From the IMG/VR virus record IMGVR_UViG_3300029248_000131: a stretch of DNA of 6,650 bases; one strand, given 5' to 3'. The DNA comes from a virus (Duplodnaviria > Heunggongvirae > Uroviricota > Caudoviricetes). The notes under the pieces were generated by a model. It made no database searches, had not been told where the DNA came from, and saw only the letters and a list, made by a program, of their open reading frames with translations. This document shows, piece by piece, positions 4,776-4,810 of this stretch. Positions within the stretch are counted from its first letter, which is position 1. Each line of letters opens with the position of its first letter. Both the position numbers and the translations under genes were made by a program.

Positions 4776-4810
4776 ACCGCAATTGCGGTATCATTCACCG
4801 CAATTGCGGT
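4776..4810. promoter_or_regulatory. Tandem pair of 14-bp perfect palindromes ACCGCAATTGCGGT (putative operator)
   Basis: ACCGCAATTGCGGT at 4776-4789 and again at 4797-4810, each exactly self-complementary, with 21 bp centre-to-centre spacing (about two helical turns). Located between the stop of the 251-aa gene (4763) and the alpA-like start (4878). Confidence 0.5.

What the first reader, a model, noticed from the sequence alone, without database searches (positions are those of the whole stretch)
4776..4810. Twin 14-bp perfect palindromes at two-helical-turn spacing upstream of alpA
ACCGCAATTGCGGT occurs twice in 35 bp, each copy exactly self-complementary, with centres 21 bp apart. That is the geometry of cooperative binding by a dimeric regulator on one DNA face. 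It sits in the short gap between the 251-aa gene and the AlpA-like gene, so it plausibly controls the switch that leads to excision or satellite activation. The binding protein is unknown; candidates are AlpA itself, the RHH-like protein at 6224-6403, or a helper-phage factor.
Basis: seen in the sequence. Interest (0 to 1): 0.55.

Follow-up and report, generated by a model that had tools for sequence, protein, structure and literature searches.

The report
Twin operators for alpA's neighbouring regulator
The two identical palindromes are real and conserved, and they are most likely the DNA-binding sites of the uncharacterised 251-aa protein encoded just upstream, placed at a fixed distance from the promoter of alpA, the master switch of this phage-satellite-like island.

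Summary
ACCGCAATTGCGGT occurs twice, exactly, at 4776-4789 and 4797-4810. Each copy extends to an 18-bp palindrome and the centres are 21 bp apart.

The motif is not a genome-wide repeat. It is present in 8 of 5426 complete E. coli genomes, at one locus each.

About 100 loci encoding homologues of the upstream 251-aa protein (40-100% identity, Gamma- and Betaproteobacteria) nearly always keep the order int, then this gene, then two dyad sites, then alpA. An unbiased scan of spacings picked 21 bp in 48 of 72 distinct regions.

The site sequence changes by clade, and it changes together with the protein's last helix. Arg236 goes with G at site position 4, and Ser/Thr/Ala236 with C, in 52 of 52 loci and about six independent switches. 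Natural swaps of the C-terminal domain bring new palindromes while AlpA stays the same. AlpA that is 94% identical occurs elsewhere without the sites.

A -35-like hexamer overlaps the proximal site by 2 bp, and a -10-like hexamer follows after exactly 17 bp. This puts the site centres near -40.5 and -61.5 of a predicted alpA promoter.

Its candidate binders (AlpA, the RHH-like protein, a helper factor) are not. Whether the protein activates or represses alpA is unresolved, with activation slightly favoured.

The parts
4008..4763 (+). Gene for the 251-aa regulator. It has a conserved N-domain (residues 1-125), a long coiled-coil helix (129-179) and a C-terminal three-helix domain (183-250). This is the proposed binder of the twin sites.
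   Evidence: ORF. No hit in Pfam, NCBIfam, PADLOC or PDB. More than 700 homologues. AF2 model with pLDDT 82.6. Alignment A2.
4710..4757 (+). Codons for the last helix (residues 235-250, SRTLEAKFAEANKSIK), the putative recognition helix. The R236 codon is 4713-4715 and the E239 codon is 4722-4724.
   Evidence: R236 and S235 are the alignment columns with the highest mutual information with site position 4. R236 and G4 agree in 52 of 52 loci, with about 6 independent switches. E/Q239 goes with C at site position 3.
4776..4789 (.). Distal operator ACCGCAATTGCGGT (18-bp palindrome 4774-4791). Its centre is about -61.5 from the predicted start.
   Evidence: Conserved at orthologous loci.
4797..4810 (.). 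Proximal operator ACCGCAATTGCGGT (18-bp palindrome 4795-4812). Its centre is about -40.5, and its last 2 nt are the first 2 nt of the -35-like hexamer.
4809..4814 (+). -35-like hexamer GTGATA (family consensus GTGAYN).
   Evidence: The hexamer is conserved next to the proximal site in 44 distinct loci, with a mean of 3.2 of 6 matches to TTGACA.
4832..4837 (+). -10-like hexamer TTCAAT, 17 bp after the -35-like hexamer. The predicted start is near 4844.
   Evidence: The -10 match peaks sharply at a spacer of 17 (mean 3.61, against 0.7-2.2 at spacers 8-30; T at position 6 in 40 of 44 loci). The start site has not been mapped.
4838..4870 (+). Inverted repeat GTCTCCCGT (4838-4846) / ACGGGAGAC (4862-4870). 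The right arm holds the alpA Shine-Dalgarno sequence and the left arm lies between the -10 and the predicted start.
   Evidence: pair I10. An equivalent pairing is found in most lineages (mean longest stem 6.3, against 3.9 in shuffles).
4878..5075 (+). alpA (65 aa), the gene under control.
   Evidence: Pfam Phage_AlpA, E = 1.1e-19. Its role as master activator in Gram-negative PICIs comes from PMC6092414.

Best explanation
The two palindromes are tandem operators. Each is bound by a dimer of the 251-aa protein encoded immediately upstream (4008-4763). That protein dimerises through its long coiled coil and reads each half-site (ACCGCA) with the last helix of its C-terminal three-helix domain. 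Arg236 is inferred to contact the G at half-site position 4, and Glu239 the C at position 3.

The 21-bp spacing (two helical turns) puts both dimers on one face of the DNA. The proximal site abuts a weak sigma-70-type alpA promoter (-35 GTGATA 4809-4814, -10 TTCAAT 4832-4837) and overlaps its -35 by 2 bp. The sites are therefore centred near -40.5 and -61.5.

Gene, operators and -35 form a portable cassette that sets transcription of alpA, the master activator of the island's excision and replication cycle.

Shown here by comparative computation: conservation of the sites, of their spacing and of their register with the promoter; protein-DNA covariation; and independence from AlpA. Inferred: physical binding, the transcription start and the sign of regulation.

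I favour activation (about 55%). The sites sit at the positions typical of class II and class I activators, the register is invariant and the -35 is poor. In this model the conserved N-domain acts as the input (helper-phage or cell-state sensor). Repression or roadblock by the same protein is about 35%.
For: (1) Synteny. The order int, this gene, two dyad sites, alpA holds in E. coli, Klebsiella, Xenorhabdus, Comamonadaceae and many metagenomic loci.

(2) Spacing. A scan of all spacings from 12 to 40 bp picks 21 bp in 48 of 72 distinct regions and 20 bp in 8 more.

(3) Site sequence changes by clade but stays symmetric in all four half-sites: ACCGC..GCGGT, ACCCY..RGGGT, ACTGCA..TGCAGT, ATTGCA..TGCAAT.

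(4) Of about 250 protein alignment columns, R236 and S235 carry the most information about site position 4 (0.93 and 0.91 of 1.14 bits). R goes with G and S/T/A with C in 52 of 52 loci. There are 6 parsimony changes each, on trees built from residues 1-183 and from the C-domain without the helix. E/Q239 goes with C3, and W/R/D/N239 with T3.

(5) Natural cassette swap. L287 and L329 have an N-domain 92% identical and AlpA 86% identical, but a C-domain only 26% identical, and their sites differ: 14-bp ACCGCAACTGCGGT against 12-bp ACCGCATGCGGT. Other C-domain types carry other palindromes, still about 21 bp apart.

(6) L267 and L319 have identical DNA from the promoter spacer into alpA but different regulators and sites. 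The junction lies between the -35 and the -10.

(7) A -10-like hexamer sits exactly 17 bp after the hexamer that overlaps the proximal site.

(8) Literature. alpA transcription is the induction step of Gram-negative PICIs, and its phage-dependent trigger is unknown (PMC6092414; PMC11773190).

Against: The gene's 3' end and the sites are only about 12 bp apart, so some covariation could reflect co-inheritance of one recombination block. The six switches on a C-domain tree reduce this objection but do not remove it.

The promoter is a consensus inference. The generic scan did not call it, the window's -10 lacks the A at position 2, and the start site is unmapped.

A few homologues lack recognisable sites (L270/271/334, L303, L333, L346).

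The characterised PICIs EcCICFT073 and EcCIMP1 appear to lack this gene yet are still induced through alpA. The cassette is therefore an added layer of control, not a universal switch.
Confidence: 0.72

Rival explanations
1. Same protein and same operators, but the protein is a repressor or roadblock. It would be an Stl-like or CI-like immunity protein that keeps PalpA shut and stops read-through from int and its own gene, and is inactivated through its conserved N-domain when a helper phage develops.
For: The DNA-binding domain and operators have diversified and been swapped many times while the N-domain stays highly conserved. This is the pattern of phage immunity repressors (variable DNA-binding domain, conserved signal-sensing domain; general knowledge). 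There is no terminator between the gene and alpA. A conserved hairpin hides the alpA ribosome-binding site in read-through RNA, which suggests that leaky alpA expression is selected against. AlpA over-expression is harmful (PMC6092414).
Against: The proximal site overlaps the -35 by only 2 bp and never covers the spacer or the -10 in 44 loci. The core promoter is weak, unlike typical repressor-controlled phage promoters. An invariant operator-promoter register is needed for activation but not for occlusion. Published work found no repressor in Gram-negative PICIs, and in the unrelated PIME elements the extra regulator next to alpA is needed for excision.
Confidence: 0.3
2. The palindromes are AlpA's own sites for the positive autoregulation reported for PICI alpA promoters.
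For: AlpA activates its own promoter in EcCICFT073 and EcCIMP1. The sites lie upstream of alpA.
Against: AlpA that is 94% identical is found in L242/L243 with no such sites. Near-identical alpA genes carry different sites (L267/L319 and L287/L329). AlpAs only 22-69% identical share ACCGCAAYTGCGGT. AlpA-family proteins are small Xis/MerR-like proteins that are not known to read 14-bp perfect dyads (general knowledge).
Confidence: 0.04
3. A different trans factor binds: the YlcI/YnfO RHH-like protein at 6224-6403, a helper-phage protein or a host regulator.
For: Nothing here measures binding, so a factor encoded elsewhere cannot be excluded. alpA is induced by helper phages through an unknown factor.
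Against: Homologues of the RHH-like protein are found in only a minority of loci that keep the sites (gene lists). A host or helper factor would not explain why site changes track residue 236 of the adjacent protein in 52 of 52 loci across Gamma- and Betaproteobacteria.
Confidence: 0.06
4. The palindromes act as RNA hairpins at the 3' end of the 251-aa gene's mRNA, as a terminator, stabiliser or processing site.
For: Each copy can fold into a 5-7-bp stem, and symmetric changes keep the pairing. They start 12 bp after the stop codon.
Against: There is no T-run after either stem, and the terminator scan does not call them. An exact 21-bp phasing, a fixed register with -35/-10 hexamers and the link to an amino-acid position are not explained by RNA folding. 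Several lineages have one degenerate arm with the half-site kept (L252).
Confidence: 0.04
5. Chance, or a dispersed repeat element (REP-like).
For: Single perfect 14-bp palindromes are not rare (about 0.4 expected per window). The bare 14-mer is found by chance in many unrelated genomes.
Against: Two exact copies occur within 35 bp. They are conserved in position across about 100 loci. The region is found in only 8 of 5426 E. coli genomes, at one locus each.
Confidence: 0.01

Closest known systems
Lambdoid repressor-operator systems (lambda CI at OR1/OR2, 434 repressor with 14-bp operators)
   Same: Dimeric helix-based readers of short dyad operators. Two adjacent operators sit on one DNA face. 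The promoter-proximal site abuts a -35, the position from which lambda CI activates PRM (general knowledge). Specificity variants of the protein-operator pair resemble immunity types.
   Different: No sequence or fold match was detected. The domain order is reversed, with the DNA-binding domain at the C terminus after a coiled coil. The gene points the same way as its target instead of away from it. No S24 peptidase domain is present.
Stl / Rpr master repressors of Gram-positive PICIs (SaPIs)
   Same: An island-encoded regulator next to int that gates the excision-replication programme, and a plausible receiver of a helper-phage signal (PMC6092414).
   Different: No homology. Stl is transcribed divergently from its target and its sensor parts are highly variable, whereas here the N-domain is the most conserved part. 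The sign of regulation is unknown here.
AlpA-dependent PalpA autoregulation in EcCICFT073 / EcCIMP1
   Same: The same target gene and promoter position in the same kind of island. EcCIMP1 even uses the same tRNA-Thr site.
   Different: Those islands lack this gene and these sites. Here the sites travel with the upstream gene and not with AlpA.
Class II / class I activator-dependent promoters (CRP or FNR at -41.5 / -61.5)
   Same: Predicted site centres of -40.5 and -61.5, a poor -35 and an invariant register.
   Different: The transcription start is not mapped. No activation has been shown and the protein is unrelated to CRP/FNR.
LuxR-type regulator next to alpA in PIME1 mobilisable elements (bioRxiv 10.64898/2026.01.12.698999)
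   Same: A second regulator sits between int and alpA and is required, together with AlpA, for excision. The authors suggest it senses the helper.
   Different: A different protein family, divergent orientation, and conjugative rather than phage helpers.

Membership tests
Tandem operators of a dimeric sequence-specific regulator | Dyad symmetry of each site | tested here: met
   Two perfect palindromes of 14 bp, extending to 18 bp. Dyad symmetry is kept in homologues.
Tandem operators of a dimeric sequence-specific regulator | Fixed helical phasing between the sites, conserved in relatives | tested here: met
   A spacing of 21 bp is chosen in 48 of 72 distinct regions out of all spacings from 12 to 40 bp, and 20 bp in 8 more.
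Tandem operators of a dimeric sequence-specific regulator | Co-variation of site bases with residues of the cognate protein | tested here: met
   R236 with G4 and S/T/A236 with C4 in 52 of 52 loci, with 6 switches. Residue 239 tracks site position 3. C-domain swaps bring new sites.
Tandem operators of a dimeric sequence-specific regulator | Physical binding of the protein to the sites | not testable with these tools
   Needs EMSA, footprinting or ChIP.
Known HTH DNA-binding domain families (for the C-terminal domain) | Significant sequence or fold match to a described DNA-binding domain | tested here: not met
   [not shown]
AlpA autoregulatory site | Sites co-occur with a given AlpA type | tested here: not met
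   The same AlpA occurs without the sites, and the same sites occur with AlpAs 22-69% identical.
Activator-dependent (class II/I) promoter | Site centres near -41.5 / -61.5 relative to a mapped start, and a weak -35 | tested here: inconclusive
   Predicted centres are -40.5 and -61.5, and the -35 matches TTGACA at a mean of 3.2 of 6. The start site is inferred, not mapped.
Stl-like PICI master repressor system | Homology to Stl/Rpr, divergent arrangement, operators covering the core promoter | tested here: not met
   No homology. The gene is co-directional with its target. Only 2 bp overlap with the -35. Derepression by a helper protein is not testable here.
Intrinsic terminator | GC-rich stem followed by a T-run | tested here: not met
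   Not called by the scan. The tails are atcattc and gatatcc.
Dispersed repeat (REP-like) | Many copies per genome | tested here: not met
   One locus per genome in 8 of 5426 genomes. Two matches in 28.5 kb.
Gram-negative PICI / P4-like satellite (the island as a whole) | tRNA-site integrase, alpA, P4-alpha-type primase, all co-directional | tested here: met
   int, alpA, an Icd-like gene, DUF4222 and a primase at tRNA-Thr in the CI5 homologue. Packaging or hijack genes and helper dependence were not tested.

The most novel reading that the evidence does not exclude
The 251-aa protein family is the missing input module of many Gram-negative satellite-like islands. Its conserved N-domain would sense helper-phage development or a conserved cell signal. 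Its swappable C-terminal reader, bound at the twin operators, would then switch alpA on (or release it). Each island lineage would carry its own orthogonal protein-operator 'immunity type'. This would be a new regulator family with a readable recognition code (R236-G4, E239-C3).
Probability: 0.4. Interest if true: 0.8.

Novelty: new variant of a known kind. Interest (0 to 1): 0.62.

Why it matters
In Gram-negative phage-inducible islands the key open question is how helper infection turns on alpA. The published work says the inducer and any repressor are unknown (PMC6092414).

This locus offers a concrete, testable control point that is widespread in Klebsiella, E. coli, Salmonella, Xenorhabdus and Betaproteobacteria. 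It consists of a cis-encoded regulator of unknown family, two operators and a promoter in a fixed register.

The residue-base covariation predicts specificity-swap mutants directly. The natural cassette swaps suggest a set of orthogonal protein-operator pairs that could be useful as parts.

It also corrects database annotation. The family is named 'protein kinase' or 'ZapB' without any support from domain or fold searches.

Tried and rejected
Only L130 and L157 were informative.
- Pfam, NCBIfam, PHROGs and PADLOC on the 251-aa protein and on the two other proteins found between int and alpA gave nothing usable. Isolated C-domains also gave nothing.
- Truncated family members in databases were examined as a possible clue to activator versus repressor. 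Most are N-terminally short gene calls, so the result is inconclusive.
- The generic promoter scan did not call the alpA promoter. It emerged only from the cross-locus phasing analysis.
- A search for shared motifs between the window's alpA upstream region and that of L242 (same AlpA) found nothing convincing, by eye.
- EcCIMP1 was checked as a possible characterised carrier of the cassette. It has neither the gene nor the sites, only a terminator-like hairpin in its int-alpA spacer.

Full report
**Observation.** The window carries ACCGCAATTGCGGT twice, exactly, at 4776-4789 and 4797-4810. Each copy is the core of an 18-bp perfect palindrome, ATACCGCAATTGCGGTAT at 4774-4791 and TCACCGCAATTGCGGTGA at 4795-4812. 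The centres are 21 bp apart. The first copy starts 12 bp after the stop codon of a 251-aa ORF (4008-4763), and the second ends 67 bp before the ATG of a 65-aa AlpA-family gene (4878-5075; Pfam PF05930, E = 1.1e-19). No other match exists in the window even with three mismatches allowed. There are only these two in 28.5 kb of the homologous E. coli CI5 region. The 51-bp twin region is present in 8 of 5426 complete E. coli genomes, at one locus each. It is therefore neither chance nor a dispersed repeat.

**Context.** The genes are an integrase (2673-3887), the 251-aa ORF, alpA and an AntA-domain gene (5153-5953). In the CI5 homologue these are followed by YlcI/YnfO, Icd-like, DUF4222, a P4-alpha-type primase, ProQ/FinO and PerC genes, all next to tRNA-Thr. 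This is the layout of Gram-negative phage-inducible chromosomal islands such as EcCIMP1, which uses the same tRNA-Thr site. In those islands AlpA is the master activator. Its transcription is switched on by the helper phage through an unknown factor, it stimulates its own promoter, and no repressor is known (PMC6092414; PMC11773190).

**The sites travel with the upstream gene, not with alpA.** Only 8 E. coli genomes share the 251-aa gene plus the palindromes, whereas 163 share the 3' part of alpA. In L242 and L243 an AlpA 94% identical to the window's follows a different 302-aa gene and an AT-rich spacer with no such palindromes. In L244 yet another gene is followed by about five copies of CCCTNAGGG.

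**Family-wide conservation.** The 251-aa protein has more than 700 homologues at 90% clustering, all about 252 aa, in Enterobacterales and Betaproteobacteria. The order int, this gene, a 100-125-bp gap, alpA is kept in Klebsiella, Xenorhabdus, Comamonadaceae and metagenomic contigs. I fetched about 100 loci and extracted the DNA after each stop codon, giving 76 distinct regions. Nearly every full-length homologue, down to 40% identity, has two dyad sites starting 0-25 bp after the stop. A scan that scored every spacing from 12 to 40 bp chose 21 bp in 48 of 72 regions and 20 bp in 8 more.

**Covariation with the protein.** The site sequence differs by clade but stays symmetric in all four half-sites:
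- ACCGCAAYTGCGGT in enterobacteria and several distant lineages
- ACCCYNNNNRGGGT
- ACCGCCAATACGGT
- ACTGCAATTGCAGT
- ATTGCAGTGCAAT

The AF2 model (pLDDT 82.6) has an N-domain, a 50-residue helix and a C-terminal three-helix domain. Across 52 distinct loci, the alignment columns most informative about site position 4 (G or C) are R236 and S235, at the start of the last helix, with 0.93 and 0.91 of 1.14 bits. Arg goes with G and Ser/Thr/Ala with C in 52 of 52 loci, once two 13-bp sites are put in register. There are six parsimony changes of each character, always on the same branches. This holds on a tree of residues 1-183 and on a tree of the C-domain with the helix left out. Residue 239 (E/Q against W/R/D/N) tracks position 3 (C against T). 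Two residues three apart on one helix tracking adjacent bases is the signature of a recognition helix.

**Natural swaps.**
- L287 and L329 share a 92%-identical N-domain and an 86%-identical AlpA, but their C-domains are 26% identical. Their sites are 14-bp ACCGCAACTGCGGT and 12-bp ACCGCATGCGGT.
- Other C-domain types come with ACCGAATTCGGT, GGGCAATTGCCC, TTGTGAACTCACAA or CTAATTAG, still about 21 bp apart.
- L267 and L319 have identical DNA from the promoter spacer into alpA but different regulators (52% identity) and different sites. The junction falls between the -35 and the -10.

**Caveat on linkage.** The C-domain codons and the sites are adjacent, so block inheritance contributes to the association. 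The repeated independent switches and the concerted change of four half-sites argue for a functional link.

**Promoter.** The bases after the proximal site are conserved as GTGAYN regardless of site type. I took the hexamer that starts 2 nt before the end of the proximal site as the -35. With that choice, the match to TATAAT peaks at a spacer of exactly 17 bp: mean 3.61 against 0.7-2.2 at every other spacer from 8 to 30. It is at least 4 of 6 in 27 of 44 loci, and T is at position 6 in 40 of 44. In the window this gives a -35 of GTGATA (4809-4814), a -10 of TTCAAT (4832-4837) and a start near 4844. The sites are then centred near -40.5 and -61.5. The generic scan did not call this weak promoter, and the start is unmapped.

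**Sign of regulation.**
- For activation: the sites sit at positions typical of class II and class I activators, the register is invariant and the -35 is poor. In PIME elements, which are unrelated, the regulator next to alpA is required for excision.
- For repression: the pattern of a diversifying DNA-binding domain and operators with a very conserved N-domain resembles immunity repressors. There is also no terminator before alpA.
- My split is about 55:35.

**Other candidate binders.** AlpA is dissociated from the sites, as shown above. The RHH-like YlcI/YnfO protein has homologues in only a minority of loci that keep the sites (gene tables). An RNA-hairpin or terminator role is not supported: there is no T-run, and such a role does not explain the phasing, the promoter register or the link to residue 236.

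**Verdict.** The 'cooperative operator upstream of alpA' reading is supported by comparative evidence. It is a new variant of a known kind: a repressor/activator-operator cassette built on an undescribed protein family, in a system where the control of alpA is an open question.

Noticed in passing
window 4838-4870 (arms 4838-4846 and 4862-4870): The hairpin GTCTCCCGT/ACGGGAGAC hides the alpA Shine-Dalgarno sequence. Its left (anti-SD) arm lies between the -10 and the predicted start. Read-through RNA from int and the 251-aa gene would therefore fold and block translation, while RNA started at PalpA would not. This resembles IS10 'fold-back inhibition'. An equivalent pairing is found in most lineages (mean longest stem 6.3 against 3.9 in shuffles).
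   Followed up: partly
window 1-2460 and 2461-2510: The left 2.46 kb is 100% identical to the right end of a myovirus-type prophage in E. coli KSC1031 and E41 (acyltransferase, S24 peptidase remnant). Similarity to the CI5 island starts at 2461, inside the 3' part of tRNA-Thr. The prophage and the island therefore appear to sit in tandem at the thrW site, which makes this prophage a possible helper.
   Followed up: partly
L244 2700-2840; L242 2889-2935: Islands with nearly the same alpA carry other, unrelated coiled-coil proteins between int and alpA. These are followed by their own repeats: about five CCCTNAGGG dyads in L244 and AT-rich TTAAATT repeats in L242. The slot between int and alpA may generally hold regulator-plus-site cassettes rather than 'accessory' genes.
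   Followed up: partly
loci L329, L324, L335, L268, L330, L328: The family keeps its N-domain and coiled coil but has at least five unrelated-looking C-terminal domains. Most of these types come with their own palindrome pair about 21 bp apart. A few members (L270/271/334, L333, L346) have no recognisable sites.
   Followed up: partly
[not shown]
   Followed up: partly
window 3961-3975 and 3992-4006: A direct repeat, TGCGGGCTGGCACAG / TGCGAGGTAGCACAG (31-bp spacing), lies just upstream of the 251-aa gene's start, in the int-gene gap. It may be part of that gene's own control region.
   Followed up: no
window 4817-4824 and 4834-4841: A direct repeat, CAATGTCT, 17 bp apart, lies inside the predicted promoter spacer and across the -10. 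It could be an AlpA autoregulatory site or chance.
   Followed up: no
L303 (after the stop of the homologue): One homologue has no sites. Its downstream DNA looks by eye like the start of an IS3-type transposase gene, which suggests an insertion removed or displaced the operators.
   Followed up: no
database annotation of the family: NCBI names the family 'protein kinase', and other sources use 'cell division protein' or 'ZapB'. None of these names is supported by any domain or fold search done here.
   Followed up: yes
L352 18940-18990 (EcCIMP1, minus strand): The int-alpA spacer of the characterised PICI EcCIMP1 has a 15-bp-arm hairpin, AAAGACCGCAATATG/CATATTGTGGTCTTT, followed by Ts. It looks like a terminator rather than a twin operator, although the arm shares GACCGCAAT with the window's half-site.
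   Followed up: no
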